This document shows positions 1 through 34,542 of a DNA stretch of 42,119 nt, one piece after another. Position 1 is the first letter of the stretch. The number at the start of each line of letters is the position of its first letter. The stretch comes from an archaeon (lineage in GTDB: Archaea; Nanobdellota; Nanobdellia; Pacearchaeales; GW2011-AR1), in the NCBI GenBank assembly GCA_009992175.1, contig JAACWA010000011.1, forward strand, positions 1 through 42,119, written 5' to 3'. Both the position numbers and the translations under genes were made by a program. The notes under the pieces are model-generated. The model was not told where the DNA came from, made no database searches, and worked only from the letters and a program-made list of their open reading frames with translations.

Positions 1-3000
1 TGTTTTTTCAAATTTTCTTCTAATGTTGCTCCCAAACTTGTAAGAGTGTCTCCTTTAGTTTTATCAAAATTAAAAACATCAGTACCAGAAAGACTTTGTT
101 TATCTATCCAACAACGTATATTTAAATTTCCACAATAACCAACATCAATCCATCTCTGATTTGTTCCAGGATAAAGTGGATCATTTCCTTTTCCAGGATT
201 TTCAGTTGCACAAACTCTAGTAACTCCTTCATTTGCTAAATCTGGAGAAACTGCATTAGAGATTCCTGCTTCTAAATTTGGATTCAAAAGACTAATTAAA
301 TTTGGACTTCCAGAGACACATTCTTGTTGACTTGTAATGTTAGAATTTATTGCTTGGTCTTTGATATATTGGTCACTCAAATAATCCACTGCAAAGTCTG
401 TACTTACAGTTCCAAAACCACACTCTTCTTGATTATTCACTTGAACACAGAGTTGGTTATATCCTTCAGCAGCTGTAAAGTCTTTAGTTTGAGTTTCATA
501 TTCTCCAGGAGGAATATATCCAGAATCAACTGAAATTGGGCTTGAAGAATCACTATAATATGAAGACCCATCTCCTTTCAAATAAACCCTATAATATGCC
601 CCTTGACTATTTCCAGCAAAAATATGGTAAAACACTTTATACTGAACTTGTGGGGGATTTGTTACACTTGAAAAAGGAATCACATCAAACTTAGCAGTAA
701 ATTGTGGGGGACTTCTAGATTGAGTTAAAGCATCTAGTGCTCCTTGACCTTCTGGATAAACTACTGACAAAAAGTTTTTACAAACAAGACTTCCAACTTC
801 TTCTTGACTTCTTGCTTTAAAGGCACTGTTAGCATTAAGTGAATAATATTGAACTAAGTAATCAGCTGAACTTTTGGCATTTGCAAGTGCTCCTTGTATT
901 CCTCCAACATACTCTCCTCCATTTCTTGCTCCTCCTCCAAAAATCCAACTGTCAATTTTTGGAACAGCTAAGTTTAACAAAGGTAATGCTTGTCTCCAGA
1001 AAAATTCACACATATAAATACTATTAATTTCGTCACAAATTCCAACAGTTTCTCCCTTTTCAAGACTAGTGTTTAAACATTCTCTGTAAGACTTTGCAAC
1101 TGAAAGGAAGTTATCTACTCCAGCTTTAACTCCCGTTAAACAAACAGGGACATAAATTCCTTCATCCCAATTTGGTAAACAAAGCATAACACTTCCAACA
1201 ACTCCAGATTGAATTACATCTCTTACAGTGTAGTCTCCACCATAATTACATCTAGAGCTCGGACAAATTACTGGGTCACAAGCATTAAATAAAATTTTAC
1301 AATCGGCTGGACTCATAATATCAGTACATTCTACTAATGGAACATCAACTGCAGGAGAACCAACTTTGTAAATAGTGTCATCATTGTCAAGCTTCAAATT
1401 TTTTATTCCATCTTTGTAAGCCCTTGAAACTTTTTCTATATTTTTAACAGCCCTATCAACCAAAGTTATCGCTTCCCCTCCTTTTAGTGAACCAATACTT
1501 GTGTAACTGTTAGAATTTCCTAAATTAATTAATTGACAATTGTCATTCATTGGATTGTATTCCACCACTCCATCTGAACCTGCATTACAAATCCAAAAGC
1601 TGTTTATTCTAGCGGATAAGTCATAAGTTCTCGAGGAAGAAGATGCTGAAACAGTCTGAGGAATATAAGCATACCACCCTTTTTGAGCTTCAACTGGAAC
1701 CAAAGCTGGAAGTCCTTTATAGGGATCTGTTTCATAATATTTTATTTCAGGATTTTTAATTGGAGTTCCTTCAGAAGTATCTTTCTTTTTGAATGAAGAA
1801 TATTTTGATTTAATTGATTTTGAAACTTCATCTGAAACCTTATTTTTATTTTCCCCATAAACTTCATTGATATAATACTCTCCAGAAGAAGCTGGTTTCA
1901 AAGTAACATAATATAAATTATTTTCATAAACAATTGGTTGAACCGGTTCTCCAGCTTTGAGTGAACCAAATCCATTAGGAACAACTGCTCCATCATAAAT
2001 TTCTTCAATACTATTTTTGTCTGAACGAATTCTAATTGTTGCTCCTTCTAAACCAGAATCTTTTATTTTTTGGTCCGCATTAAGTCTAACAAGGTTTTCA
2101 TTAACATTGTTTTCAACGCCCTTAAGAAGAATAAACAATCTTTCTCCATATTCTAATTCTTTATTTCCCAAATATAAATTTGCATAAAGTTCAATTTGCT
2201 TTGCATCTTCAAGGCTATAAATTCTTCCAAGGTTTTCTCCAGTTAAATATTCTTTAACCTTTTTAACATCAACAAATTCTCCTTTAGTTTTTGGATTTTC
2301 AAAATTATCTCCCAGGAAATTCAAACTCTCTTTAATTTTTTGTGAATACCCTTTGTCCATCAAAGTCTTTTGATTAACAATATCCTCTCCAAAAATTCCT
2401 CCCGAGTTTGTTACTCCATCAATTTCTTGAAGAGTTTTAAGTCCATCATTTTGTTTCTCCATTTCTTTAGTCATCTGACTAACTTGGTCTTCTATTTTTC
2501 CAGAATTGTCAAACAAACATTGTTCTTTAGTAGAATATTTTATATCAATTTGACCTTCACAATAAGAATTCCATTCCCTCATAACATTTTTTCTTGCAAG
2601 AGATTCAACTCCTGAATTAAGAAGTAAATTTTTGAGTGTCAAAACTGCTCCAGTAATTTCACAAGTTGTTTGGAAAGTTTTAACAACAGTTCCAAGGTTG
2701 TCTGAAATTCCCTGTAAAACATTAATTCTATTTGTCCAACTTTCAATTCTAGCTTTTGTTTCTTCTGGAGAAAGTTGAATAGACCTTTTTTCAATTCCAA
2801 TTGTGAAATTAAAGTCAACATTACTAATGTCTCTAACCTTTGTGTTCACTGAAACTTTAGCAACCTTTTTGAGATTAATTTTTGTAACAACAAAGATATA
2901 ATCTGTTCCTCCAATATTGAATGGAACATCTTTTTCTAAATTTGAATTTATTGAAGTTAAAAAAGATCCAGTTTTTGAAAGAATACTTCTTCCTTGCAAA

Positions 3001-5261
3001 CTAAAATCTAAACTTGCCCATTTTTCATCTTTAATTTCATTTAATTTAATGTACTCTTGATTATTTGAATTTTCCGAACTAGTTACAGAAGAAGTTCCAG
3101 TTATTTGAAGTTGTCCGTCTTGAAAATTTTTCCATTTAAGAGAATTCAAGAAAGTAATTGACTCTTGGGGAAGAGTGTAATCTTTAAAAGATCCAGAAAC
3201 AACTTTATATTCAGAGGTATCCATCCAAACCGATTTATCTGGAGACCATAACCACCCTATTTTAGGAGATTGATATGTTGTTAAAGGTTGATTTAAAGGA
3301 ACCCCATATTTAAAATATAAAACACCGGATCCTCCTGGTTTATTCATTGTAAAAATTTGATTTTGTTGGGTTGATGAACTAGTAGAAGATTTGAATAAAT
3401 TTCCTAGATAAACAATCTCTCCTTTTCTCATTTGAATTGAATTTTTAACAACCTCCTCTCCTTTTTTTATACTAATTTCAATTCCATACTCCTCGAAACT
3501 TGGTTCACGAACTCCTTCAAAAGAAATTTCTTTGTAATCTCCATCTATTAAAAAAGTCTGTCTTGAAACTCCAACATTAGAATATCTTGGAATGTTTTCA
3601 CAAGGGGATATGTCTAAATTAGAACCAGAATATTTTGATTTAAAGTCTTCACAATATTTTTTCAAGTCTTCACTTTGGTACAATTTATCTGAAAGATTAA
3701 TTAATTGTGCTAAAGCTTGTTCTCCTAAATATCCATCTAACTTTTCTTCATATTTTTGATTCGCAAAGTTTTCTTGAATTTGTTTATAATCTCTAACTGC
3801 ATTATTTTGGTATCCAATAAGAGTTTGATTCTTCAAATCTAAATTTGTTCCAACTCCAAAACTTTTAATTTGTACTTTTGTTCCAAAGGCCTCTTGAGCT
3901 GAACCATAATTAATTCTTTTAAAATTGTTTCCATCAAATAACCAATTAAATTTGGGTTCTACAAAACCAAAAATGGTTTTGAAAACATCCGAAGCTGATT
4001 TATCCTTTCTCAAATCATTTTTTGCATATCTTGCAACTTTACTTAATGTATCTGAATCTAATTTATCAACCGGTTTACCAGGAACTGTAACTAAATAAAT
4101 TAAAGAATTTTGAATGGCATCTAATTTGGATTTGGGGTCTGTTCCAACATACCCCAAGTAAACTGCCTTTTCATCATAATTAAATGGAAGACGATCTCCA
4201 ACTTGATAAGTCTTCTCTGAAGAGCCACCAATAGATAAATCAATTGTAGGTTCAATTCTTAAAGGAAAAGTTTGTGTTTTTTCATCCCCTTCACAACGAA
4301 CATCAACTGTTTGCCTTAACCCTTCCTTAATTGGATCCGAAACAACTTGACATTTATTGTCATAAAAATATTCTCCTTTTTTTACTTCAAAAGTTTCAGA
4401 ATTAACTTTCATAACTGCTCTTGTGTCTTGCCCTTCTACTGAATCTAATTTTAATGTTGAAGAAGCCATACATCCAAAACCAGGAAGGAAAAAACTAGAA
4501 GATTCTTCACCAACATTTAATTTTTTGCTTAAAACTTTTTGTTTTTCGGCTCCTCCAGAATTTGCATTGAGTCCTGAATAAATTGAAATTGAGGCAGAGG
4601 TGGTTTGAATGTCATCGGCCCTCAAGTAACCCATATGATTAAAAAAAGCATATTGACCATATAATTCTTTGAATTCGGGGTCAGTCATAAGGGAAAGGTA
4701 AAACCTATAATTTTCTAAACCAAAAGAATTTCTCAAGTCATAAATAATTCTTGCTGAAAGTCCTCCAACAATTGATTCAGGCATTGAAGACTCATTTCCA
4801 TTTCTTGCTAAAAATATTATTGCATAACCTATATTATTCCATTGTCCATTACTTAGTTGAGTATTTAATCCTAAAGCAGGATAACTCGGAATAAACCCAA
4901 CACTACTAACTCCTTCTGGTAAACTTGATCCAAAATCAATTGATTTAATTGAAGTAACTGTGATTAAAGGATTAACTTTTAATGCTTGAAGTTGGCAATA
5001 AACTGGAACATTTTGTTCTTCAAGTAAATCACTTCTAACAACTGGAGGAGTACATCCACCTGGAACAACTCTTATGATAAAATCCTGTCCACTAGAACAA
5101 ACTTCATTATTAAAATTGAAATCTTGGTTTGTTCCAAAACCAAAAGAAGAACCAGCTAATCCTGGTTGAGTAAGTTGAAAACTAGATTTTTCATAAGCAG
5201 AAGTAAAACTAAGAATAAAAATAAGAATAAAAATTCCAAGAAAAATTTTATTTATTTTCAT
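1..5261 (-). CDS. Giant secreted Cys-rich protein (>1750 aa, 3' end runs off the left edge)
   Basis: ATG at 5261 overlaps the stop of the upstream gene (ATGA). Translates as MKINKIFLGIFILIFILSFTSA (signal peptide) then ...GCTPPVVRSDLLEEQNVPVYCQL..., with a Cys-rich block near 950-1340 (ECTDIMSPADCKILFNACDPVICPSSRCNYGG...LCLPNW...VCLTG...CDEINSIYMCEFFW). The same frame is still open at position 3. It is absent from the ORF track, as expected for a frame with no stop in the window. Confidence 0.9.
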   Translation of the reverse strand, partial: MKINKIFLGIFILIFILSFTSAYEKSSFQLTQPGLAGSSFGFGTNQDFNFNNEVCSSGQDFIIRVVPGGCTPPVVRSDLLEEQNVPVYCQLQALKVNPLITVTSIKSIDFGSSLPEGVSSVGFIPSYPALGLNTQLSNGQWNNIGYAIIFLARNGNESSMPESIVGGLSARIIYDLRNSFGLENYRFYLSLMTDPEFKELYGQYAFFNHMGYLRADDIQTTSASISIYSGLNANSGGAEKQKVLSKKLNVGEESSSFFLPGFGCMASSTLKLDSVEGQDTRAVMKVNSETFEVKKGEYFYDNKCQVVSDPIKEGLRQTVDVRCEGDEKTQTFPLRIEPTIDLSIGGSSEKTYQVGDRLPFNYDEKAVYLGYVGTDPKSKLDAIQNSLIYLVTVPGKPVDKLDSDTLSKVARYAKNDLRKDKSASDVFKTIFGFVEPKFNWLFDGNNFKRINYGSAQEAFGTKVQIKSFGVGTNLDLKNQTLIGYQNNAVRDYKQIQENFANQKYEEKLDGYLGEQALAQLINLSDKLYQSEDLKKYCEDFKSKYSGSNLDISPCENIPRYSNVGVSRQTFLIDGDYKEISFEGVREPSFEEYGIEISIKKGEEVVKNSIQMRKGEIVYLGNLFKSSTSSSTQQNQIFTMNKPGGSGVLYFKYGVPLNQPLTTYQSPKIGWLWSPDKSVWMDTSEYKVVSGSFKDYTLPQESITFLNSLKWKNFQDGQLQITGTSSVTSSENSNNQEYIKLNEIKDEKWASLDFSLQGRSILSKTGSFLTSINSNLEKDVPFNIGGTDYIFVVTKINLKKVAKVSVNTKVRDISNVDFNFTIGIEKRSIQLSPEETKARIESWTNRINVLQGISDNLGTVVKTFQTTCEITGAVLTLKNLLLNSGVESLARKNVMREWNSYCEGQIDIKYSTKEQCLFDNSGKIEDQVSQMTKEMEKQNDGLKTLQEIDGVTNSGGIFGEDIVNQKTLMDKGYSQKIKESLNFLGDNFENPKTKGEFVDVKKVKEYLTGENLGRIYSLEDAKQIELYANLYLGNKELEYGERLFILLKGVENNVNENLVRLNADQKIKDSGLEGATIRIRSDKNSIEEIYDGAVVPNGFGSLKAGEPVQPIVYENNLYYVTLKPASSGEYYINEVYGENKNKVSDEVSKSIKSKYSSFKKKDTSEGTPIKNPEIKYYETDPYKGLPALVPVEAQKGWYAYIPQTVSASSSSRTYDLSARINSFWICNAGSDGVVEYNPMNDNCQLINLGNSNSYTSIGSLKGGEAITLVDRAVKNIEKVSRAYKDGIKNLKLDNDDTIYKVGSPAVDVPLVECTDIMSPADCKILFNACDPVICPSSRCNYGGDYTVRDVIQSGVVGSVMLCLPNWDEGIYVPVCLTGVKAGVDNFLSVAKSYRECLNTSLEKGETVGICDEINSIYMCEFFWRQALPLLNLAVPKIDSWIFGGGARNGGEYVGGIQGALANAKSSADYLVQYYSLNANSAFKARSQEEVGSLVCKNFLSVVYPEGQGALDALTQSRSPPQFTAKFDVIPFSSVTNPPQVQYKVFYHIFAGNSQGAYYRVYLKGDGSSYYSDSSSPISVDSGYIPPGEYETQTKDFTAAEGYNQLCVQVNNQEECGFGTVSTDFAVDYLSDQYIKDQAINSNITSQQECVSGSPNLISLLNPNLEAGISNAVSPDLANEGVTRVCATENPGKGNDPLYPGTNQRWIDVGYCGNLNIRCWIDKQSLSGTDVFNFDKTKGDTLTSLGATLEENLKK

Positions 5262-18962: not shown

Positions 18963-18964
18963 TT

Positions 18965-19675
18965 TTAATTTCCAATAAATAATTTATTTAATACACTGAA
19001 ATTGGCAAGTAAATTCAAATTTTGAGTAAAAACTAATATTCCAAGGATAATTAGAAATCCTCCAATCACCCAATTATAATACTTCATTTTAGGGCCTATT
19101 TTCTTTATAATTCCTTGAGACCGGTCCAAGAAAAGTCCAACAATTAAGAAAGGAATTCCAAGCCCTAATGAATAAATAAACAAAAGGATGAAACTCATTC
19201 CAGGTTGAGTAATTGCAAGAGTTAAAATGCTTCCCAGTACAACTCCAACGCAAGGAGTCCATCCAACCGCAAAAACAACTCCGAATAAGAAACTGTTTAA
19301 GTAAGTTATTTTAAATTTCTTTTTTACATCAACAGTATAACTTCTCTTTAAATAAGGAATTTCAACTAATCCTGTTAAATGCAAACCAAAAATAATTATT
19401 AAAATGCCCCCAATTCTAGCAAGCCAGGTTTGCACAATATATGAAGACCCGCTTAAGACAGTATTAAATAAAATTCCAATAAGTGAAAAAACAAGAGTGA
19501 AACCTAAAACATAAAAAAGACTATTAAAAAAAACAACCCTTCTTTGTGCCTTTTCTTTTGGGGAAATTGTTCCCGCTAAATACCCTAAAAACCCAGGAAC
19601 AATAGGTAAAATGCAAGGACTAAAAAAGGACACTATTCCTGCAAAGAAAACAATTAGAATACTTGCTTGAACCAT
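18965..19675 (-). CDS. ccdA: CcdA/DsbD-type transmembrane electron transporter
   Basis: SFFSPCILP and GWTPCVG motifs; about 6 TM. Confidence 0.92.
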   Translation of the reverse strand: MVQASILIVFFAGIVSFFSPCILPIVPGFLGYLAGTISPKEKAQRRVVFFNSLFYVLGFTLVFSLIGILFNTVLSGSSYIVQTWLARIGGILIIIFGLHLTGLVEIPYLKRSYTVDVKKKFKITYLNSFLFGVVFAVGWTPCVGVVLGSILTLAITQPGMSFILLFIYSLGLGIPFLIVGLFLDRSQGIIKKIGPKMKYYNWVIGGFLIILGILVFTQNLNLLANFSVLNKLFIGN

Positions 19676-25203: not shown

Positions 25204-27024
25204 ATGGAAGATTTATTTGAAATAGATAAAGAAAAAAAAGATTTTTTTAGAGAAGCGATTGACTTTTTAGAAAAGTATAAAGAATTTTTTGATAGGGATT
25301 TGAATATTAAGGTGGGAAACTATCTCATTTTAGAAGACCATTCTAAAGAACAAATTTACGCTGGATTTTTTCAAAATCCTAAAGAAGAAATAAAAGAAGA
25401 AATAAGGAAGAAATTTGGAAAAGAAGTTCTAAAAATACTTGAAGAACAAAAAAAATTAAAAGAAATAATCAAAAAATCTAATAAAGAAAATAGTGAAATT
25501 TTAAGAAAAGTGATTATTTCTTCAATTGAAAATATTGAAGGGATTGAAATTGAAACTATATCTAAATTTATAGTCCTTTGTGAGAAAAAAGAAAAAAATC
25601 TTGCAAAGGAAATGAATGAATTCTATGCTCCTCTTTTGGGAAGATTAGGTTTAGAAAATATTAGAAAAAAAATACTAAATGAATCTTTCAAAATTTTAAA
25701 TCCCAAAAAATACTTAGAAATTTCTAATTTTCTTAAAATGTCTAAAAATGAAAGAGAAGAATTTATAAAAAAAATCATAAAAGAATTTGAGATAAGATTA
25801 AAAAAGGAATTAAAAGGAATTAAAATAAAGGGAAGAGAAAAACAAATTTATAGTATTTATGAAAAAATAACAAAAAGAAAGGTTCCATTAAACGAACAAA
25901 AAGATCAATTTGCAATAAGGATAATTACTCCAAATATTAAAGATTGTTATAGTGTATTTGAAATAATTTCTCAAGATTATGAAGTATTGGAAGAAACAAT
26001 AAAAGATTATATTAAAAATCAAAAAGAAAATGGATATCAATCCTTACACTTTTGCATTTTATTTGAAAAAAAACTTTTAGAAATACAAATAAGAACCAAA
26101 GAAATGGATGAATTTGCAGAAGAAGGAAAAGCTGCACATTGGGCATATAAAAAAATAAAGGGGGATAAAAAATTTGAAAAGAAAACAGGTTGGTTTAAAG
26201 AATTATTAAAGTTAAAAGAAAATAAGAACTCTTTAATTAATGAACTAAAAATTAATATTTTCCAGGATAAAATTTATTGTTATACTCCAAAAGGAAAAGT
26301 GATTGAATTAAAAAATGGTTCAACTGTCTTAGATTTTGCTTATAAAATTCATGCTGAAATAGGAAATCAGTCAATAGGAGGTGTAGTTGATGGAAAATTT
26401 GTTCCATTAAAAACAATTTTAAAAAACAACCAAACAATAGAAATTACCACAAATAAGTTTCAAAGACCAAGAAGAGATTGGATGAAATTTGTAAAGACTA
26501 GTTATGCCAAAAAGATTATTTCGAGGGAGGTAAAAAGATTTGAGAATATTCCTGTGCCCAGGTCAAAACCTCTTGAAAATTCTAAGGAAAACAAAACTGA
26601 AAACCCTGTAATAATGAAAGAATTTAAAAATCATTTGTTAACATTTGCAAAATGTTGTAATCCTCTCCCTGGAGAAAAAATAATTGGAATAATCAAATCC
26701 CATAAAAGGGGTTTAATACACAAAAAAGGATGTAATAGAATTAAAGAAGCAAAAAAAAACCAAGTAGAAGCATCTTGGAAAGAAACTTTTGAAAAACAAA
26801 TAAAATTAACAGTGGAGGGAAGAGATAGGCCAGGAATTTTGGCTGACATTTTGAACACCATCTCAAGAAAAGGATTTAAAGTCGTTGAAGCAAACGCAAA
26901 ATTAGCAGGAAATGAAAATACAGAATGTTATTTTATTTTAAAATTAAACTCTCTTGAAGAATTAGAAGAAATTATTGAAAGGGTTAAAAAAATAGAGGGA
27001 ATAAAAAAAATTTGGTTAGATTAA
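25204..27024 (+). CDS. Long RelA/SpoT homologue (pseudo-HD, synthetase, TGS, ZFD, ACT)
   Basis: YAPLLGRLG, GREKQIYSIYEK, DQFAIRII, KDYI...KENGYQSLH, EIQIRT..M...AE.G.AAHW.YK, TGS (YTPKG..LDFAYKIH), AKCCNPLPG and ACT (DRPGILADI) motifs. Confidence 0.93.
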   Translation: MEDLFEIDKEKKDFFREAIDFLEKYKEFFDRDLNIKVGNYLILEDHSKEQIYAGFFQNPKEEIKEEIRKKFGKEVLKILEEQKKLKEIIKKSNKENSEILRKVIISSIENIEGIEIETISKFIVLCEKKEKNLAKEMNEFYAPLLGRLGLENIRKKILNESFKILNPKKYLEISNFLKMSKNEREEFIKKIIKEFEIRLKKELKGIKIKGREKQIYSIYEKITKRKVPLNEQKDQFAIRIITPNIKDCYSVFEIISQDYEVLEETIKDYIKNQKENGYQSLHFCILFEKKLLEIQIRTKEMDEFAEEGKAAHWAYKKIKGDKKFEKKTGWFKELLKLKENKNSLINELKINIFQDKIYCYTPKGKVIELKNGSTVLDFAYKIHAEIGNQSIGGVVDGKFVPLKTILKNNQTIEITTNKFQRPRRDWMKFVKTSYAKKIISREVKRFENIPVPRSKPLENSKENKTENPVIMKEFKNHLLTFAKCCNPLPGEKIIGIIKSHKRGLIHKKGCNRIKEAKKNQVEASWKETFEKQIKLTVEGRDRPGILADILNTISRKGFKVVEANAKLAGNENTECYFILKLNSLEELEEIIERVKKIEGIKKIWLD

Positions 27025-27605
27025 AAAAATTTCTCTTGTGAAATTTCTTTTTTTACAATTTCCATATCTTTTTCCCAAAGTGGAAGTAATTTCCGATTGT
27101 AAATTATTGCGGCAGGATGAAATAAAGGAATGAGCTTAATTTCCACTCCATTAATTTTAACAAAATTAACTTTTCCATGAACTTGAGTAATTCCAGGTTG
27201 CTTACCCATCAATTCAAGATTTCCTTCACTTAAAAAAAATTTAGTTGAATAATTTCCGAGTGAACAAATTACTTTTGGTTTTATTTTTTTTATTTGTTCC
27301 AATAACCAAGGAGTGTGTGCCTTAATTTCTTCTGGTAAAGGGTCTCTGTTTTCAGGAGGTCTACATTTCAAAATATTTGCAACATAAATTTCATCCAAAC
27401 TAAGTCCAACATTACTAAGAAGTTTATCTAGATTTTTTCCTGAAGCCCCAACAAAAGGTAAACCTTGTAAATCTTCATTTTTTCCTGGAGCTTCCCCCAC
27501 AAAAAGAATATCAGAAGTAGGATTTCCCTTCCCAACAACAATGTTTGTGCAAAGCTTACAAATTTCTGTTTCTTTCACAAGACGAATATAATCTGGTTCA
27601 ACCAT
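27021..27605 (-). CDS. Uracil-DNA glycosylase family 4
   Basis: CKLC, VGEAPG..ED..G.PFVG, NILKCRPPENR and FHPAA motifs. ATG 27605 preferred on TATA spacing. Confidence 0.93.
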   Translation of the reverse strand: MVEPDYIRLVKETEICKLCTNIVVGKGNPTSDILFVGEAPGKNEDLQGLPFVGASGKNLDKLLSNVGLSLDEIYVANILKCRPPENRDPLPEEIKAHTPWLLEQIKKIKPKVICSLGNYSTKFFLSEGNLELMGKQPGITQVHGKVNFVKINGVEIKLIPLFHPAAIIYNRKLLPLWEKDMEIVKKEISQEKFF

Positions 27606-27653
27606 ACAAAAAAGAAAACAAATCTTTTTAAATAAATTTTTATTCAACCAATT

Positions 27654-28109
27654 ATGGAAAGAACATTAGTTTTAATAAAACCGGATGCAGTTGCAAAAAG
27701 AATTGCTGGACATGTAATAAGTGATCTTTATTCTACTAATTTGAAGATGATTGGATTAAAAATAGTCAATGTCAAAAAAGAACTTGCTGAAAAACATTAT
27801 TATGATATTCCTCAAAAACATGGTCAAGAAGTTTTTGAAAAATTAATTAAACATCTTATAGGTGATCTTCACAACCACGCAAATGTAATTGCAATCGTTT
27901 ATGAGGGTGAAAATGCAATTAAAAAAATAAGAGAACTTGCAGGAAGCACCCATCCTGAAAAAGCAGATTTTTGCACACTACGTGGAAAGTATGGAAGAGT
28001 TAATTCTGAAACAGACTGTTTTGAAAATGTAATTCATGCCTCGGATTCTCCAGAATCTGCAGAAAAAGAGATTTCTTTATGGTTTGATGAAAAAGAATTA
28101 ATAAATTAA
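27654..28109 (+). CDS. ndk: Nucleoside diphosphate kinase
   Basis: MERTLVLIKPDAV, TLRGKYG and NVIHASDS motifs. Confidence 0.96.
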   Translation: MERTLVLIKPDAVAKRIAGHVISDLYSTNLKMIGLKIVNVKKELAEKHYYDIPQKHGQEVFEKLIKHLIGDLHNHANVIAIVYEGENAIKKIRELAGSTHPEKADFCTLRGKYGRVNSETDCFENVIHASDSPESAEKEISLWFDEKELIN

Positions 28110-28162
28110 AACAGCTCTTTTTCCCCAATAATACTTAAAAAACATCGAATTAATTTTAATTT

Positions 28163-29551
28163 ATGAAACTTAAAAAAAGTCTTTTACTTTTACTCTCTCC
28201 CCTCTTCCTAATAGGATGTTCAAATTTTCCAAATATTTCCAAAGAAGAAACTCCAAAACCTAAAATTGATACAGTTTATGTAACAAAAGAAATTCCAGTA
28301 AAAATAAATCCCCTTGACACTTTGAATGGACCTAATGCTTATTCAAAAGCAAAAGAATTTTTTGAAAGAGGACAAAATTTTTATGAAGAAGGAAAAGATG
28401 ATTCTTCAAAAGTTTATTTCCAAAAAGGAATGAGACTACTTTCACAATCAGCCCTTTCATTAGAAGATTATAATTTTATAGACCCTCTTGAAAATTTGTA
28501 CAACCTTGAACAATATAAATCACAAAAAGAAGCTTTAGAAAATGAAATAGAAGTTTCAAAAGAAGAGATAGCAAATGCTGAAAAAAAATTCCCAATGGGA
28601 GAAAGATTTGCAGAAAAAATTGCTTATTATAAAAAACTTTACGAAACTAGACAAAACAAATGGTTTATGAATTCCTTAGAAAAATTTTTACAATATAAAC
28701 CTTTTATAGATTCTGTCTCGAATGAAAAAGCAATTCCAAATTTGATAAAATATATGTATCCTGTAGAAAGTGGTATGGAAACCTACATAAAATCTAGAGC
28801 AGGAGCAAAAGGAATTGCTCAATTCATGACTCAAACAGCAAAATTATGGGGACTAAAAGTAATGGGAATCTGGTATGATGAGAGGATGGACCCATTAAAA
28901 GCAATCCCTGCTTCAATGGATTACATAAATTTTCTTTATTCTGATTTGGGGGATCCTAGTCTTGCAATAGCTGCTTACAACTGTGGAGAAGGAAGAGTCA
29001 TTGACAAATTAAAAAGATTTAACTCTTTTAACTTTGATGAACTTTTAAAAAAAAGAGTTTTGCCAAGAGAAACATTAGAACACCTTCCAAAAATATATGC
29101 ATATCAGGAAAAAAGCGAAGGAATAAATTTTGAAAATCCTAAAAAAGATACTATTCTAGACAATTTATTAACAAAAAATTTTGATACCTTAAATGTACAC
29201 CAACAAGCTAGTTTTGGAATTCTTGCAAAAATTTTGGGAATCTCAAAAAAAGATTTAAAAAAATATAATCCTGCATATGGGCTCGATGCAACCCCTCCAG
29301 AAAAAATAGTAAAAGGTGAATATTCTTTTGAAATAAGAGTTCCTAAAGGAACAAAAGAAAATTTAGTAAAAAAATTTTCAAAATTAAAAGAAAAGTATGT
29401 TTTTGAAGGGGGAACTTACACCATAAGAAAAGGAGATAACCTTGGAAAAATAGCAAGAAAATTTGGAGTTTCTTTATATCAATTAAAAAAAGCAAATGGA
29501 TTTCCAATAATTATTTATGCAGGACACAGATTAATTATTCCGGGAAATTAA
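28163..29551 (+). CDS. MltD-type lytic transglycosylase (GH23/SLT) with LysM, predicted lipoprotein
   Basis: Signal peptide ending LIGC, catalytic VESG, SRAGAKGIAQFM..TA..WGL, DERMDP, LAIAAYNCGEG, PRET, and C-terminal LysM YTIRKGDNLGKIARKFGVS...N....IYAGHRLIIP. Confidence 0.93.
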   Translation: MKLKKSLLLLLSPLFLIGCSNFPNISKEETPKPKIDTVYVTKEIPVKINPLDTLNGPNAYSKAKEFFERGQNFYEEGKDDSSKVYFQKGMRLLSQSALSLEDYNFIDPLENLYNLEQYKSQKEALENEIEVSKEEIANAEKKFPMGERFAEKIAYYKKLYETRQNKWFMNSLEKFLQYKPFIDSVSNEKAIPNLIKYMYPVESGMETYIKSRAGAKGIAQFMTQTAKLWGLKVMGIWYDERMDPLKAIPASMDYINFLYSDLGDPSLAIAAYNCGEGRVIDKLKRFNSFNFDELLKKRVLPRETLEHLPKIYAYQEKSEGINFENPKKDTILDNLLTKNFDTLNVHQQASFGILAKILGISKKDLKKYNPAYGLDATPPEKIVKGEYSFEIRVPKGTKENLVKKFSKLKEKYVFEGGTYTIRKGDNLGKIARKFGVSLYQLKKANGFPIIIYAGHRLIIPGN

Positions 29552-29554
29552 TAT

Positions 29555-29824
29555 TCACTCTTCCTTTTTATTAAAATAAAAAAAATTTCCTTGGTTTTTA
29601 ATTTTAAAATCTCCCATTGATTTTTCATCAAATTTAGGATTTTTTTCAAAAAAGTTTTCAAGTCTTCTTCTAGTAACAAAAATTCCTGAAATATTCTTCT
29701 TCTTTTCAGCGTTAATTTTAGAAAGATAAAGAACAAAATTTTTATGATGTTGACCTAACTTCAAACTTCTTCCAAAATAATACCATCCTAAATTTGAAGA
29801 TTCCCCATAATTATTTGATTCCAT
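29555..29824 (-). CDS. Hypothetical protein
   Basis: 89-aa ORF starting 2 nt after the radA stop. Confidence 0.55.
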   Translation of the reverse strand: MESNNYGESSNLGWYYFGRSLKLGQHHKNFVLYLSKINAEKKKNISGIFVTRRRLENFFEKNPKFDEKSMGDFKIKNQGNFFYFNKKEE

Positions 29825-29826
29825 CT

Positions 29827-30858
29827 TTATAATTTATCTTTAATTCCTTGGTTTGTCACAAAATAAACCGCTTCACCATCTGGTAAGTTTGGACTATCAA
29901 TTAATTTTGCAACACGACTTCCTTGTTTTGCTCGACGTAAATAAAGACGAAAAGTTGAAGCATGACCTACAATATTTCCTCCAATTGGAGAAGTTGGATC
30001 TCCAAAAAGTTGAGCAGGATTAGCCATCACTTGATTTGTAACATAAACTGCTAAGTTATAAGTTTCAGCAATTTTCATTAATTCATGCATATACCTATTA
30101 AGTTTTTGTTGTCTATCTGCTAATTGCCCTCTTCCTGCAAACTCTGCTCTAAAATGAGCAGTAAGTGAATCAATAACAATTAATCTGATTGGTTCCCCTG
30201 CTTTTATCATTTCCCCAATTTTTTCTAAAAGAAGAATTTGATGGTCTGAATTAAATGCTCTCGCAACTAAAATATTTTTTAAAACCATTTCAGGGTTAGC
30301 CCCAATTCCATCCGAAATTTGATTTATTCTTTCTGGTCTAAAAGTTCCTTCAGTATCAATATAAACCGATTTTCCTCCTGCTCCCCCTTGTTCAATTGGA
30401 AGTTGTGCATTTACCGCTAAGGAAAGCCCTAACTGAGTTTTACCCGAACCATAAGCCCCAAAAGCTTCTGTTATTGCCTTACTTTCAATCCCTCTTCCAC
30501 CCAGAAGTTCATCTAAACTTTTACTTCCGGTAGTAATATGTAAAACGTTAGATCTTTTTTTTGCAAATTCCATTCCATCACTAAAACCTAATTCCAAAAT
30601 ATTTCGAGCAGCTTGAATTGCCTTTCTTGCAACTGCACCACTAACTCCTGCAGCATCAGAAAGTGAAGCTGGACTCATTACTGCCAACCCCATCATGTCA
30701 TATACTCCTGCATTTTCCAATTTTGAAAGAGCAGCAGGTCCAATTCCAGGTAAATCAGTTAATTCTAAGGATTTTTCTTCTTTTTTAGATTTAGATTTTT
30801 TCTTTTCATCGTCAGAAATTGCGTCTTTAATCTCCTCAATTTCTTTTTTTGTAGCCAT
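29827..30858 (-). CDS. radA: DNA repair and recombination protein RadA
   Basis: N-terminal HhH (LPGIGPA), Walker A GAYGSGKTQ, YIDTEGTFRPER, RGQLADRQQKL and GGNIVGH motifs. Confidence 0.97.
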   Translation of the reverse strand: MATKKEIEEIKDAISDDEKKKSKSKKEEKSLELTDLPGIGPAALSKLENAGVYDMMGLAVMSPASLSDAAGVSGAVARKAIQAARNILELGFSDGMEFAKKRSNVLHITTGSKSLDELLGGRGIESKAITEAFGAYGSGKTQLGLSLAVNAQLPIEQGGAGGKSVYIDTEGTFRPERINQISDGIGANPEMVLKNILVARAFNSDHQILLLEKIGEMIKAGEPIRLIVIDSLTAHFRAEFAGRGQLADRQQKLNRYMHELMKIAETYNLAVYVTNQVMANPAQLFGDPTSPIGGNIVGHASTFRLYLRRAKQGSRVAKLIDSPNLPDGEAVYFVTNQGIKDKL

Positions 30859-30898
30859 AAAAAATTAAAAGACCCTTCGTTTATAAAGTTTATAACAA

Positions 30899-31360
30899 TT
30901 AAAGATATACTTCAAAGATTAATTTAAAAATTAAAAACAAATCAAAAATTCCAAAGAATAAAAATAAAAAACTTTCAATTTTTCCTCCTGTTTTTAAAAA
31001 TCCATGAATTCTAAATTTAAATGGATAAAACAACCTCAATCCTTGTTTGGTAACTAAATCTCCCAATAGGTGAGTTCCATAACCAACTAAAAAGCCCAAG
31101 GAAATACTTGGAAAATAAAAATAGAATAAAAAATAAAAAACTCCCAAAAAGAGTAAACTATGCATAACCCCTCTATGTTTTGTAAAAGCAGTCAAAACAC
31201 GAGAAAAAAACCTCTTTCCAAATTTTGAAGTATAAGAATCCAAATCAGGAAGAAAAGTAGAAATTAAAACAGCAATTAAAAAAATTATTGGATTTGAAAC
31301 ACTTTGAATTAAAAGAAGACCAACAAATAAAGAGAAAACTAAGTGTGTTCTTGATAACAT
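30899..31360 (-). CDS. Membrane-bound metal-dependent hydrolase (YdjM/DUF457-like)
   Basis: RTH, LPDLD, HRGVMHS and HLLGD..T..G..LFYPF motifs. Confidence 0.9.
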   Translation of the reverse strand: MLSRTHLVFSLFVGLLLIQSVSNPIIFLIAVLISTFLPDLDSYTSKFGKRFFSRVLTAFTKHRGVMHSLLFLGVFYFLFYFYFPSISLGFLVGYGTHLLGDLVTKQGLRLFYPFKFRIHGFLKTGGKIESFLFLFFGIFDLFLIFKLIFEVYL

Positions 31361-33014: not shown

Positions 33015-33660
33015 AAAAGATTTGGAAAACATTAAAGAAAAGCTAATTGAACACATAAATTCCAATTATGAAAAATCGCAAGCAGAAGAATTTATAAAAA
33101 ATATAAAAGGGATGAATGATGAAGAATTTACTAAATTTTTAAAAGAACAAGGGTTAATTGGGGGGGAAAATCAAAAATCTCAATGTATCTTTTGCTCGAT
33201 TATTTTTGGAGATATTCCTTCCACTAAAATTGGAGAAAATGAAAAAGCGATTGCAATTTTAGATATAAAACCAGCTTCATTAGGACATTCTTTAATAATT
33301 CCTAAAGAACATATTGAATCAAAAGAAAAGTTACCTGGAGAAGTAGGTAAATTGGCAATCACAATTCAGGAAAAACTAAAGAAAACTTTTAATCCTAAAA
33401 AAATAGACTTAATTTCAACAAATGTTATGGGCCATGAAGTTTTGAACGTTCTCCCTATTTATGAAGAGGAATCTCTTGAATCGGATAGAAAAAACTTAAC
33501 CCCCGAAGAATTAAAAAAAGTAAAAGAAAAAATAGAAAAAGAAACTAAAAAAGAAGAACCCAAAGTTAAAGAAAAAGATAATAACAAAGAAGATTCGGAA
33601 GAAAAAACAAAAGAAGAAATTAATGAAAAAAATACTTGGCTCCCAAAAAGGATTCCTTAA
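33001..33660 (+). CDS. HIT-family protein with degenerate histidine triad
   Basis: CIFCSI..G.IPS.KI.E...A.LDI.P...GHSLIIPKEH present; the triad region reads VMGHEVLNVLP. Confidence 0.82.
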   Translation: MTQTKKDLENIKEKLIEHINSNYEKSQAEEFIKNIKGMNDEEFTKFLKEQGLIGGENQKSQCIFCSIIFGDIPSTKIGENEKAIAILDIKPASLGHSLIIPKEHIESKEKLPGEVGKLAITIQEKLKKTFNPKKIDLISTNVMGHEVLNVLPIYEEESLESDRKNLTPEELKKVKEKIEKETKKEEPKVKEKDNNKEDSEEKTKEEINEKNTWLPKRIP

Positions 33661-34511
33661 AACCCAATACTTCTAAAAAACAAATCAAAAAAAGTTGTCT
33701 CTAAAAAAATCCAAAGAAGAATAAAACTAATAAGAAAAACTGGAGCAAACTGAATTCCATAACGAATCAATACCTTTTTTCCTCTTTTCTTTAAACGATT
33801 AATTTCTTCTTCACTAAGTCCATCCCAATTTGCTCTAAAAGTTTTACCTTTAACTTTAATGTCTTCGCTTAACCAATCTCCTGGAGTCAATTTAGAGGGA
33901 ATAACTTCACGCACCATACAAAAATCATCAACAGATTTTAAGAATAAATAAAAATAAGGAAAAACAAAAATAAGAATTCCAAAATAAAAGAGATAATTGA
34001 TATAAAAACTTAACAAGATAAAAACAAAAGCAAAGAAGGTACCCCAAATTATCAATTTTTTATTTTTATTAAATAAAACTAAAAATCCTTTTTTAAATTT
34101 TTTAAAATTAATAACTCCAATTATTAAACTTAAAAATATTCCATATATTGCTCCCACAAAAAGATAAATCAAAATAAACAATAAAAATAATTTCAAATTC
34201 TGAGCAAAACTAGAAAAAATAGGAAGAACAGCTCCTAAAGAAATCATAAGTTTCATATCTCCTCCAGCAAACATTTTATTATAATAAAATAAATTTCCCA
34301 ACACTAAAAAAATTGAAAAACCTAAAATTCCTTGATAAAAAAGTGAAAAATCAGTTGAAACAAAAAGAGAGTAAAAAAACCTAAATCCAAAAGCAAAAGC
34401 AATTAAACTAAAATTAAGCCAATTTGGAATCTCTCTAGATTTGAGGTCTGAAATTACTGCAAAGATTAACCACACAAAGGCCAACCCATATAAAAAAATT
34501 ACCTCAATCAT
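33657..34511 (-). CDS. Prepilin/prearchaellin peptidase (A24, PibD/FlaK-like)
   Basis: SDLKSREIPNW and AGGDMKL aspartates, GDW..EDI insert and C-terminal FAPVFL. Confidence 0.9.
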   Translation of the reverse strand: MIEVIFLYGLAFVWLIFAVISDLKSREIPNWLNFSLIAFAFGFRFFYSLFVSTDFSLFYQGILGFSIFLVLGNLFYYNKMFAGGDMKLMISLGAVLPIFSSFAQNLKLFLLFILIYLFVGAIYGIFLSLIIGVINFKKFKKGFLVLFNKNKKLIIWGTFFAFVFILLSFYINYLFYFGILIFVFPYFYLFLKSVDDFCMVREVIPSKLTPGDWLSEDIKVKGKTFRANWDGLSEEEINRLKKRGKKVLIRYGIQFAPVFLISFILLWIFLETTFFDLFFRSIGF

Positions 34512-34542
34512 CAAGATAAATAGGATTTAGAGTTTATAAAAA

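What the first reader, a model, noticed from the sequence alone, without database searches (positions are those of the whole stretch)
28163..29551. Intact peptidoglycan lytic transglycosylase (MltD-LysM lipoprotein) in an archaeon
Seen: lipobox signal (LIGC), catalytic Glu motif VESG, GIAQFM, AAYNCG and a C-terminal LysM, between ndk and archaeal radA, with host-like AT-rich composition and a TATA-like element 21 nt upstream. Known: GH23/SLT enzymes cleave MurNAc-GlcNAc bonds and LysM binds peptidoglycan; archaea do not make bacterial peptidoglycan. Inference: a surface-anchored enzyme aimed at bacterial walls, implying a bacterial host, prey or necromass substrate for a small-genome archaeon.
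Basis: partly seen in the sequence, partly recalled or inferred. Interest (0 to 1): 0.85.

Follow-up and report, generated by a model that had tools for sequence, protein, structure and literature searches.

The report
MltD-like cell-wall cutter in a Pacearchaeon
A tiny groundwater archaeon carries an intact, long-kept copy of a bacterial enzyme that cuts bacterial cell walls, probably to attack or attach to bacteria, but such genes are already well reported in this archaeal group.

Summary
Window 28163-29551 (+) is an intact 462-aa ORF with a signal peptide ending in a lipobox (LIGC, Cys19), an SLT/GH23 domain, a cryptic LysM-like module and a canonical C-terminal LysM. It lies between ndk and archaeal radA.

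It is not a chimera. Independent metagenome contigs bridge both junctions. Six other species of the genus carry the orthologue in the same slot. All seven share a BRE/TATA-like box at -28, the genome's modal promoter position.

Sequence, motifs and predicted fold match family-1D lytic transglycosylases; the top structural hit is Pseudomonas aeruginosa MltD. The catalytic Glu-Ser, GxxQ and AYNxG motifs are invariant. One Tyr that positions the Glu is His in 10 of 10 archaeal copies.

The 84%-complete genome shows no peptidoglycan synthesis or muropeptide catabolism genes, and no Lgt or LspA. An extracellular enzyme acting on bacterial peptidoglycan is the best reading. Activity, lipidation and expression are untested.

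The kind is already published (Castelle 2021, Vigneron 2022, Strock 2025). SLT domains occur in 99 of 201 genomes of the order. The same window holds the cut-off N-terminal part of the known giant SLT protein. Verdict: real, ordinary for this lineage, a new member of a known kind.

The parts
28126..28142 (+). BRE/TATA-like promoter box (CAATAAT + ACTTAAAAAA). TTAAA starts at -28 from the ATG, which implies a leaderless or near-leaderless mRNA.
   Evidence: Sequence. Present in 7 of 7 orthologous loci at the same distance; invariant columns in the alignment of 6 of them. The genome-wide TTAAA peak is at -28 (55 of 437 ORFs) and -26 (26 of 437). Promoter function is inferred.
28163..29551 (+). 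Whole ORF, 462 aa: an MltD-like (family 1D) lytic transglycosylase precursor.
28163..28219 (+). Signal peptide with lipobox: n-region MKLKK, hydrophobic core, L-I-G-C, Cys19 at 28217-28219.
   Evidence: Cys19 is invariant and Gly18 nearly invariant in 10 of 10 orthologues. Cleavage and lipidation are inferred, not shown.
28220..28303 (+). Low-confidence, probably disordered linker (aa 20-47) after the lipobox Cys.
   Evidence: pLDDT below 50 for residues 1-47. PaMltD also has a long linker after its lipobox (PMC11327851, passages).
28310..28723 (+). N-terminal helical region (aa 50-187). Its last helices (about aa 133-189) correspond to the extra helices upstream of the Pfam SLT domain in family 1D.
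   Evidence: DSSP helices. The phmmer alignment to 8rhe starts at aa 174. Bryobacterales homologues match from aa 62.
28724..29038 (+). SLT/GH23 catalytic domain (aa 188-292). Catalytic Glu202-Ser203 (Glu codon 28766-28768), G217-I-A-Q220, A270-Y-N-x-G275.
29081..29083 (+). His307 codon. This position aligns with PaMltD Tyr249, which hydrogen-bonds the catalytic Glu. It is a clade-specific Tyr-to-His change.
   Evidence: Alignment, with offset checked against PMC11327851. His in 10 of 10 archaeal orthologues; among 49 other rows, 45 Tyr, 3 Phe, 1 His.
29177..29344 (+). Cryptic LysM-like beta-alpha-alpha-beta module (aa 339-394), equivalent to PaMltD LysM1, which packs on the catalytic domain.
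   Evidence: Secondary structure E340-345, H351-358, H362-368, E389-394. Aligned to 8rhe. N369, P370 and Y372 are invariant. PaMltD LysM1 is described in PMC11327851.
29417..29542 (+). Canonical C-terminal LysM domain (aa 419-460).
27654..28109 (+). ndk, the upstream flank of the insertion slot.
   Evidence: synteny.
29827..30858 (-). Archaeal radA, the convergent downstream flank of the slot.
   Evidence: synteny.
3..5261 (-). N-terminal 1753 aa of a giant protein cut off by the contig end. It is the orthologue of the 2300-3000-aa SLT-bearing giant proteins of the genus, whose SLT domain lies C-terminal of the part held here. It is a second, separate part of the probable peptidoglycan toolkit.
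   Evidence: No Pfam match in the held part. Matches in 23 of 23 genus genomes. In 6 genomes the same ORF carries PF01464 1.1-1.9 kb further on.

Best explanation
The gene encodes a family-1D (MltD-type) lytic transglycosylase. An ancestor of this Pacearchaeota genus took it from a bacterium long ago, and it is now a resident chromosomal gene.

Proposed mechanism, with shown and inferred steps marked:
1. It is transcribed from an archaeal BRE/TATA promoter at -28 (motif shown; use inferred).
2. It is exported by its Sec-type signal peptide and cut or lipid-modified at the invariant lipobox Cys19 (inferred). This tethers it by a roughly 28-residue flexible linker to the outside of the archaeal membrane.
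3. The cryptic LysM1 and the C-terminal LysM bind glycan strands, and the groove with Glu202 cleaves MurNAc-GlcNAc bonds of peptidoglycan (inferred from homology).

The archaeon has no detectable peptidoglycan synthesis genes, so the substrate must be foreign, that is bacterial walls. The likeliest use is to open or grip the wall of a bacterial host, prey or competitor at close contact. It would act alongside the giant SLT protein that every member of the genus carries. It is an accessory weapon, present in 7 of 23 species of the genus.
For: Identity:
- Pfam SLT and LysM both pass their cut-offs.
- The NCBIfam MltD model aligns over aa 186-446.
- The best PDB match by sequence is 8rhe, E 1.9e-17, aa 174-448.
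- The AF2 model has mean pLDDT 72.3. Its six best Foldseek hits are all PaMltD chains: E 2.8e-12 to 6.3e-8, target TM 0.54-0.65.

Active site: E202, S203, G217, Q220, Y272, N273 and G275 are invariant in 10 of 10 orthologues. They align with PaMltD E144-S145, G159xxQ and Y214-N215.

Selection: Nei-Gojobori dN/dS is 0.10-0.28 for six of the eight pairs computed.

Residency:
- 6 of 6 orthologue-bearing relatives have the gene between ndk and radA.
- Contigs from three other runs bridge both junctions with 0-2 mismatches.
- The promoter box is conserved in 7 of 7 loci at the genome's modal position.
- GC matches the flanks.
- The orthologues form one clade (SH-aLRT 99 and 100) on a long stem of 1.13-1.23 changes per column within bacterial diversity.

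Foreign substrate: Mur_ligase_M, Transpeptidase and FtsW/RodA were not found in the own genome.

Export: Cys19 is invariant.

Context: giant SLT orthologues occur in 23 of 23 genus genomes. Published work shows that archaeal peptidoglycan hydrolases can kill bacteria (PMC12352652, abstract and section 6 read).
Against: - There is no activity, lipidation or expression data.
- The Tyr that positions the catalytic Glu in PaMltD is His in all 10 archaeal copies. The effect is unknown, though 3 of 49 other rows have Phe there.
- Lgt and LspA were not found, and only 5 of 756 ORFs have a lipobox-like N-terminus, two of which look like polytopic membrane proteins. Lipidation therefore depends on an untested archaeal route.
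- A membrane tether with a short linker limits reach. It could not get past a Gram-negative outer membrane unaided.
- No companion amidases were found.
- The gene is dispensable: 16 of 23 genus genomes lack it.
- The genome is 83.7% complete, so the absences are provisional.
- LysM and the MltD groove also bind chitin oligomers (PMC11327851; PMC12352652).
Confidence: 0.65

Rival explanations
1. Necromass scavenging: the enzyme frees muropeptides from dead bacterial walls, and the archaeon takes them up as a source of amino sugars and amino acids.
For: The genome is small (609 kb). The organism occurs in aquifer and groundwater metagenomes. The ISME J 2024 paper proposes peptidoglycan of dead bacteria as a resource for Pacearchaeota (PMC11537232, passages).
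Against: AnmK, NagB (Glucosamine_iso), Amidase_2, Amidase_3 and LD-carboxypeptidase S66 were not found in the own genome, at 83.7% completeness. A lipid-tethered enzyme is poorly suited to digesting dispersed debris.
Confidence: 0.12
2. Non-murein glycan target: the enzyme and its LysM modules act on or bind chitin-like or other GlcNAc-containing polymers, for example the surface glycans of an archaeal or eukaryotic partner, rather than peptidoglycan.
For: LysM can bind chitin (PMC12352652, section 6). PaMltD crystallised with chitotetraose in its groove (PMC11327851). The clade-specific Tyr-to-His change next to the catalytic Glu could mark a shift in chemistry. Known cultivated DPANN hosts are archaea (abstract of PMC8204110).
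Against: All family-1 LT motifs are invariant. The whole architecture is that of MltD. Nothing seen here points to chitin use.
Confidence: 0.1
3. Adhesin only: the protein has lost turnover and serves as a peptidoglycan-binding anchor that holds the archaeon on a bacterial surface.
For: There are two LysM-type modules. The Glu-positioning Tyr is replaced by His. Castelle 2021 suggests attachment as a role for the giant SLT proteins (PMC8204110).
Against: The catalytic Glu-Ser and the substrate-binding motifs are invariant across copies that are only 44-77% identical overall. That would not be expected for a binding-only role.
Confidence: 0.06
4. Artefact: bacterial contamination or a chimeric join in the assembled genome.
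For: The gene family is bacterial. The genome is a 45-contig assembly with 2.48% estimated contamination.
Against: Contigs of three other runs bridge ndk-SLT and SLT-radA. The same ndk-SLT-radA order is found in 6 of 6 other species. The archaeal promoter box is conserved. GC is host-like. The nearest bacterial sequences are at most 36% identical, mostly about 30%.
Confidence: 0.01

Closest known systems
Pseudomonas aeruginosa MltD, family 1D lytic transglycosylase (PDB 8RHE, 8RHF, 8RHI; PMC11327851)
   Same: It has an N-terminal lipobox Cys followed by a long linker, and extra helices ahead of the SLT core. It shares the Glu-Ser motif, the GxxQ clamping-loop motif and AYN. A LysM1 module sits next to the catalytic domain, followed by a mobile canonical LysM. 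It is the best sequence hit and the best fold hit.
   Different: - Only 22-25% identity over the Foldseek alignments.
- Two LysM-type modules instead of four.
- His307 where PaMltD has Tyr249.
- An added helical stretch at aa 50-127.
- The host is an archaeon with no murein of its own, no periplasm and no Lgt or LspA.
Escherichia coli MltD (NCBIfam PRK10783 equivalog; LysM structure 1E0G)
   Same: The model aligns over aa 186-446. The LysM fold matches 1e0g (rank 41). The length is similar.
   Different: It scores 90.8 bits against a cut-off of 508, so it is not an equivalog.
Giant murein-like lytic transglycosylase proteins of Pacearchaeota and Woesearchaeota (fam00969 of Castelle et al. 2021, PMC8204110; also Vigneron et al. 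2022, PMC9723730)
   Same: Same lineage and same catalytic domain family. The published inference is the same: binding and degrading bacterial walls, with possible bacterial hosts or prey. An orthologue of such a giant protein lies in this very window (3-5261).
   Different: Those proteins are up to about 3000 aa, with no LysM reported in the passages read. This one is a compact 462-aa MltD-type protein with a lipobox and LysM. It is confined to 7 of 23 genomes of one genus and to ten 90%-identity clusters in the 5.8-billion-protein database.
Modular archaeal peptidoglycan hydrolases (Strock et al. 2025, PMC12352652)
   Same: It has a catalytic domain plus a wall-binding domain, a signal peptide, a patchy distribution among close relatives and a bacterial origin. 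Nanoarchaeota are named in the paper as rich in such genes.
   Different: The tested examples are M23 peptidases with PG_binding_1 domains from a haloarchaeon, and they are often on plasmids or small contigs. This one is a glycan-strand cleaving LT at a fixed chromosomal slot. Its supplementary tables, which may list SLT-LysM proteins, could not be seen.

Membership tests
SLT / GH23 lytic transglycosylase domain (Pfam PF01464) | Profile match above the curated cut-off | tested here: met
   75.4 bits against a cut-off of 21.3, aa 188-292; 78.8 bits in the six-frame genome search.
Family 1 lytic transglycosylases | [quoted passage not shown] | tested here: met
   E202-S203 is invariant in 10 of 10 orthologues and aligns to PaMltD E144-S145.
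Family 1 lytic transglycosylases | Motif II (G-x-x-Q in the clamping loop) and motif III (A-Y-N-x-G) | tested here: met
   G217-I-A-Q220 and A270-Y272-N273-x-G275 are invariant.
Family 1 lytic transglycosylases | Conserved Tyr hydrogen-bonded to the catalytic Glu (PaMltD Y249) | tested here: not met
   His307 in 10 of 10 archaeal orthologues. Of 49 other rows, 45 have Tyr, 3 Phe and 1 His. His could still donate the bond; this was not tested.
Family 1D (MltD type) | Extra helices ahead of the SLT core and a LysM1 module beside the catalytic domain, giving the fold of PaMltD | tested here: met
   The six top Foldseek hits are PaMltD chains, target TM 0.54-0.65. Helices lie at aa 133-189 and a beta-alpha-alpha-beta module at aa 340-394. 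The model has moderate confidence (pLDDT 72.3), so packing of LysM1 is not certain.
Family 1D (MltD type) | NCBIfam MltD equivalog score | tested here: not met
   90.8 bits against a cut-off of 508. It is a distant relative, not an equivalog.
LysM (PF01476) | Profile match above the cut-off | tested here: met
   41.5 bits against a cut-off of 20.9, aa 419-460. It is the only LysM match in the genome.
Bacterial-type lipoprotein | Lipobox [LVI][ASTVI][GAS]C after a signal peptide | tested here: met
   L-I-G-C19. Cys is invariant in 10 of 10 orthologues.
Bacterial-type lipoprotein | Lgt and LspA processing enzymes in the genome | tested here: not met
   PF01790 and PF01252 gave no match in the 83.7%-complete genome.
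Archaeal lipoprotein (AliA/AliB route, PMC12462473) | arCOG02177-type enzyme present, and Cys-dependent lipidation | not tested
   No profile or sequence for AliA or AliB was on hand. The paper says the family occurs in DPANN 'with some gaps' (passages).
Lytic transglycosylase (activity) | Non-hydrolytic cleavage that gives 1,6-anhydro-MurNAc products | not testable with these tools
   Needs a biochemical assay.
DPANN giant SLT proteins (fam00969) | Very large extracellular protein (thousands of aa) with one SLT domain | tested here: not met
   This protein has 462 aa. The giant type is a separate gene in this window at 3-5261.

The most novel reading that the evidence does not exclude
A bacterial lipoprotein export signal has been kept invariant for a whole genus-level radiation in an archaeon that has no Lgt or LspA. 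This would mean the archaeal lipoprotein machinery reads it and plants a family-1D lytic transglycosylase on the archaeal cell surface. There, together with the genus-wide giant SLT protein, it opens the murein of a bacterial host at the contact site. If so, these Pacearchaeota are cross-domain episymbionts or predators of bacteria. The clade-specific Tyr-to-His change would then tune the enzyme for work outside a periplasm.
Probability: 0.25. Interest if true: 0.6.

Novelty: new member of a known kind. Interest (0 to 1): 0.33.

Why it matters
No DPANN archaeon has been shown experimentally to live on or prey on bacteria. Lytic transglycosylases are the main genomic argument for that idea.

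This compact enzyme should be soluble once the signal peptide is removed. At 462 aa it is a far easier test object than the 2000-3000-aa giant proteins, and it could be expressed and assayed on sacculi directly.

Its invariant lipobox also makes it a natural test substrate for the newly found archaeal lipoprotein pathway in a DPANN setting.

The fixed ndk-radA slot, with presence or absence among sister species, gives a clean case for studying how a bacterial weapon gene is domesticated and lost in a reduced archaeal genome.

As a discovery it adds a variant, not a new principle.

Tried and rejected
Donor of the gene. Two quick maximum-likelihood trees were built. One search had 62 rows; one search had 44 rows after I dropped 18 (L094_b and the three other archaeal SLT rows for their long branches, and 14 near-duplicate rows). 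Both put the orthologues in one clade. The sister group changed: a Treponema group at SH-aLRT 85, an unresolved polytomy. No donor can be named. The 'careful' search did not finish in 300 s, so only the quick tree is reported.

Relation to other archaeal SLT proteins of the order. Three of them (250-397-aa frames, G047, G038, G058) joined next to the orthologues at SH-aLRT 84. All three are long branches and the tool warned of long-branch joins, so no conclusion is drawn.

Gain versus loss. In a radA protein tree of 21 genus genomes the presence label needs 4 changes, and starred branches force at least 2. G011 was left out because its radA is split over two contigs, and G017 because it had no radA match. 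The tree is weakly resolved (4 of 18 inner branches starred) and unrooted. 'One gain and several losses' is therefore my reading, not a result.

dN/dS. dS is 0.85-2.0, at or near saturation, and the two most distant pairs gave 0.48 and 0.56. The ratios are rough.

Expression. No RNA holder was listed for window 27000-31000. This says nothing either way.

Depth along the locus comes from contigs and cannot rank genes. One X5 contig showed a 434-base skip (27941 to 28376) with only 22 letters on its shorter side, at a depth of 53 unlike the rest. I take it as another organism or a repeat.

Rfam found only the two tRNAs in the window.

Lipobox census. This is my own regular expression on ORFs from the first ATG, not SignalP, so the counts are indicative only.

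Supplementary files of papers are closed. Supplementary tables of PMC8204110, PMC9723730 and PMC12352652 may already list this very protein family.
Full report
WHAT IS THERE.
Window 28163-29551 (+) is one open frame of 462 codons starting at ATG. Pfam finds an SLT domain (PF01464, E 3.6e-21, aa 188-292) and a LysM domain (PF01476, E 1.3e-10, aa 419-460), both well above their curated cut-offs. The NCBIfam model for murein transglycosylase D aligns over aa 186-446 (model positions 112-373 of 457). It scores only 90.8 bits against a cut-off of 508. The protein is therefore a distant MltD relative, not an equivalog.

The neighbours are as stated. ndk lies upstream on the same strand. An archaeal radA lies convergent downstream, scoring 449 bits against a cut-off of 259 for the RadA equivalog.

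THE ORGANISM.
The window is a whole contig of a 609,405-base, 45-contig genome estimated at 83.7% complete and 2.5% contaminated. The contig carries archaeal radA, SRP54, FtsY, an aIF2-alpha-like gene and a prepilin peptidase. One source names an orthologue of the protein 'Candidatus Pacearchaeota archaeon'. Runs that hold the locus are labelled aquifer or groundwater metagenomes.

NOT A CHIMERA, AND NOT RECENT.
Contigs assembled from other runs bridge both junctions with 0-2 mismatches:
- X5 record 3 covers 27908-29408, and X6 record 9 covers 27000-29402. Both span ndk into the gene.
- X7 record 21 covers 28213-30136, and X5 record 4 covers 29385-29933. Both span the gene into radA.

Full-length orthologues (44-68% identity by the genome search) occur in 6 of the 22 other genomes of the genus, making 7 of 23 with the window's own. 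In 6 of 6 of these the gene lies between ndk and radA, within a block of conserved genes that runs from the DHH phosphoesterase to the prepilin peptidase.

For the 16 genus genomes without the gene, radA loci were obtained for 15:
- In 11, ndk abuts radA with a gap of roughly 110-610 bases.
- In one (G002), a MetK-like ORF fills the slot.
- In three (G010, G013, G007), no ndk lay within the 1.5 kb fetched.

The GC content of the gene matches its flanks.

Upstream of all 7 orthologues lies a conserved box, CAAyAAT-nyTTAAA, with TTAAA starting 28 bases before the ATG in the window and in G009. In the whole genome, TTAAA starts at -28 in 55 and at -26 in 26 of 437 ORFs of at least 150 aa. The other upstream positions from -80 to -6 hold 1-12 each, and -5 holds 26. 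The gene therefore has the host's standard BRE/TATA arrangement for leaderless messages. That it is used is inferred, because no RNA data were available.

EVOLUTION.
In a database of 5.8 billion proteins the family has ten 90%-identity clusters of 456-471 aa, the window's own plus nine at 42-76% identity to it. The next hit drops to 31% identity and belongs to the longer, multi-LysM bacterial MltD-like proteins. Named bacterial relatives come from many phyla at 23-34% identity.

In two quick maximum-likelihood trees the archaeal orthologues form one clade (SH-aLRT 99 and 100) on a long stem (1.13 and 1.23 changes per column) inside bacterial diversity. The sister group is not stable, so no donor can be named.

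Within the clade the branching is (G008-type, G004) versus (G019-type, ((window, G009), (G011, G022))). This agrees with the radA tree where that tree is resolved: G000 with G009, and G008 with G004. On the radA tree the presence of the gene needs 4 changes. My reading is one old acquisition at the ndk-radA slot followed by repeated loss, but the tree is weak and unrooted.

Nei-Gojobori dN/dS is 0.10-0.28 for six of eight pairs and 0.48-0.56 for the two most distant, with dS near saturation. This points to purifying selection.

WHAT KIND OF ENZYME.
The best solved relative by sequence is 8rhe (E 1.9e-17, aa 174-448). An AlphaFold2 model built on the ten-sequence alignment has mean pLDDT 72.3. 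Its six best Foldseek matches are all chains of Pseudomonas aeruginosa MltD (E 2.8e-12 to 6.3e-8, target TM-score 0.54-0.65).

The paper on that structure (PMC11327851, passages read) lists the hallmarks of family 1D:
- a lipobox Cys followed by a long linker;
- extra helices ahead of the SLT core;
- the Glu144-Ser145 motif;
- the G159LWQ clamping-loop motif;
- Tyr214 and Asn215 at the sugar subsites;
- Tyr249 hydrogen-bonded to the catalytic Glu;
- an unpredicted LysM1 packed on the catalytic domain;
- further mobile LysM modules.

In the window's protein I find:
- Cys19 followed by a low-confidence stretch to residue 47;
- helices up to residue 189;
- Glu202-Ser203, G217-I-A-Q220 and Tyr272-Asn273;
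- a beta-alpha-alpha-beta module at 340-394 that aligns to LysM1;
- the canonical LysM at 419-460.

All these catalytic and binding residues are invariant in 10 of 10 orthologues.

One feature differs. The position of Tyr249 is His307 in 10 of 10 archaeal copies. Among the 49 other rows of the alignment (36 named bacterial loci and 13 unnamed database proteins), 45 have Tyr, 3 Phe and 1 His. The effect is unknown.

WHAT IT ACTS ON.
The own genome gave no match to Mur_ligase_M, Transpeptidase or FtsW/RodA. The controls rang in the expected bacteria. The archaeon therefore has no detectable murein or pseudomurein synthesis, and the substrate must be foreign.

It also gave no match to AnmK, Glucosamine_iso (NagB), Amidase_3, Amidase_2 or Peptidase_S66. 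Nothing therefore supports feeding on muropeptides. All these absences hold for an 84%-complete assembly.

This is the only LysM match in the genome and the only SLT match. However, the giant ORF at window 3-5261 (-) is 1753 aa long and is cut off by the contig end. It is the orthologue of 2300-3000-aa proteins present in 23 of 23 genus genomes. In six of them (G022, G015, G006, G007, G019, G018) the same ORF carries an SLT domain 1.1-1.9 kb beyond the part that matches the window. The organism very probably has this second, giant SLT protein as well, with its catalytic part lying off the contig.

EXPORT AND ANCHORING.
The N-terminus is a textbook signal peptide with a lipobox, and Cys19 is invariant. 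Lgt and LspA were not found, as expected for archaea.

My own crude census found lipobox-like N-termini in only 5 of 756 ORFs of at least 80 aa. Two of these look like polytopic membrane proteins.

A 2025 paper reports that predicted lipoproteins and the candidate lipidation enzyme AliA (arCOG02177) occur in DPANN 'with some gaps' (PMC12462473, passages). I could not search for AliA. Anchoring is thus a reasonable inference, not a result.

MOST LIKELY MECHANISM.
- Shown: an intact, selected, host-integrated family-1D LT gene with export signal and two LysM-type modules, in an archaeon without murein genes.
- Inferred: export, tethering at Cys19, glycan binding by the LysM modules, cleavage of MurNAc-GlcNAc bonds by Glu202 in bacterial peptidoglycan, and use in close contact with bacteria as host, prey or competitor.

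I give the peptidoglycan-directed extracellular enzyme reading 0.65. The rivals are necromass feeding (0.12), a non-murein glycan target (0.10), a binding-only adhesin (0.06) and an artefact (0.01).

COMPARISON WITH WHAT IS KNOWN.
- Castelle et al. [quoted passage not shown] They say these may bind and degrade bacterial walls, and cite earlier notes from 2013 and 2015 (PMC8204110, abstract and one passage).
- Vigneron et al. 2022 argue for predation from GH23 genes in Woesearchaeota (PMC9723730, passages).
- A 2024 ISME J paper says many Pacearchaeota genomes include GH23 (PMC11537232, passages).
- A 2024 mBio paper reports the same in three DPANN genomes (PMC10936187, passages).
- Strock et al. 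2025 found modular peptidoglycan hydrolases in 175 of 3,706 archaeal genomes, prominently in Nanoarchaeota. They showed that two haloarchaeal ones kill a bacterium (PMC12352652, abstract and section 6).

In my own survey the SLT domain is present in 99 of 201 genomes of the order, and in 36 of 76 of the best-quality ones.

What is particular here:
- the compact MltD architecture with a kept lipobox;
- the fixed ndk-radA slot with a conserved archaeal promoter;
- the Tyr-to-His change;
- the coexistence with the giant SLT protein.

My searches for 'Pacearchaeota' with 'transglycosylase', 'DPANN' with 'lytic transglycosylase' and 'LysM' with 'DPANN' turned up no listed title or abstract start, and no passage I read, that describes an MltD-type SLT-LysM lipoprotein in these archaea. 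I did not open every paper they listed. Supplementary tables could not be read.

VERDICT.
This is a new member of a known kind. Its value is mainly practical, as a small, testable representative.

Noticed in passing
window 3-5261 (-): A giant ORF (1753 aa held, cut off by the contig end) with no Pfam match in the held part. It is the orthologue of 2300-3000-aa proteins in 23 of 23 genus genomes. In six of them the same ORF carries an SLT domain further towards the C-terminus. The next ORF, 5258-7093 (-), 611 aa, also has no Pfam match.
   Followed up: partly
window 25204-27024 (+): A long RelA/SpoT homologue in an archaeon: RelA_SpoT synthetase, TGS and ACT domains, plus a weak HD_4 match of 30.9 bits. 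It is conserved at the same place in 4 of the 6 relatives examined, at 57-70% identity. It is a bacterial-type stringent-response enzyme in a 0.6-Mb archaeal genome.
   Followed up: partly
slot between ndk and radA in relatives: L032 (G002) 246-1523; L038 (G007) 1483-3906: The ndk-radA slot is variable. G002 has a bacterial-type S-adenosylmethionine synthetase-like ORF of 426 aa there instead of the transglycosylase. In G007 the radA frame runs on for at least 808 aa after the conserved ATPase motifs, which looks like an intein insertion.
   Followed up: no
window 29555-29824 (-): An 89-aa ORF starts 3 bases after the radA stop on the same strand and fills the 275-base gap between the transglycosylase and radA. 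In G009 that gap is only about 12 bases, so the ORF is either strain-specific or spurious.
   Followed up: no
window 29308 and 29372: Two population variants lie inside the gene, A>G at each place, giving I382M and K404E. They are seen in contigs of runs X6 and X8 and in the database representative P0001.
   Followed up: partly
window 17871-19675 (-): A secreted-type thioredoxin/redoxin protein (363 aa) lies next to a DsbD/CcdA-type membrane electron transporter (236 aa). Together they look like an extracytoplasmic thiol-redox pair.
   Followed up: no
whole genome G000, upstream regions: TTAAA peaks sharply at -28 and -26 from the start codon (55 and 26 of 437 ORFs). This implies that most messages in this genome are leaderless.
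   Followed up: partly
window 33657-34514 (-): A type IV prepilin-like peptidase (Peptidase_A24) lies 4 kb from the transglycosylase and is conserved in the syntenic block of relatives. Pili are the usual candidates for host attachment in such small-celled organisms.
   Followed up: no
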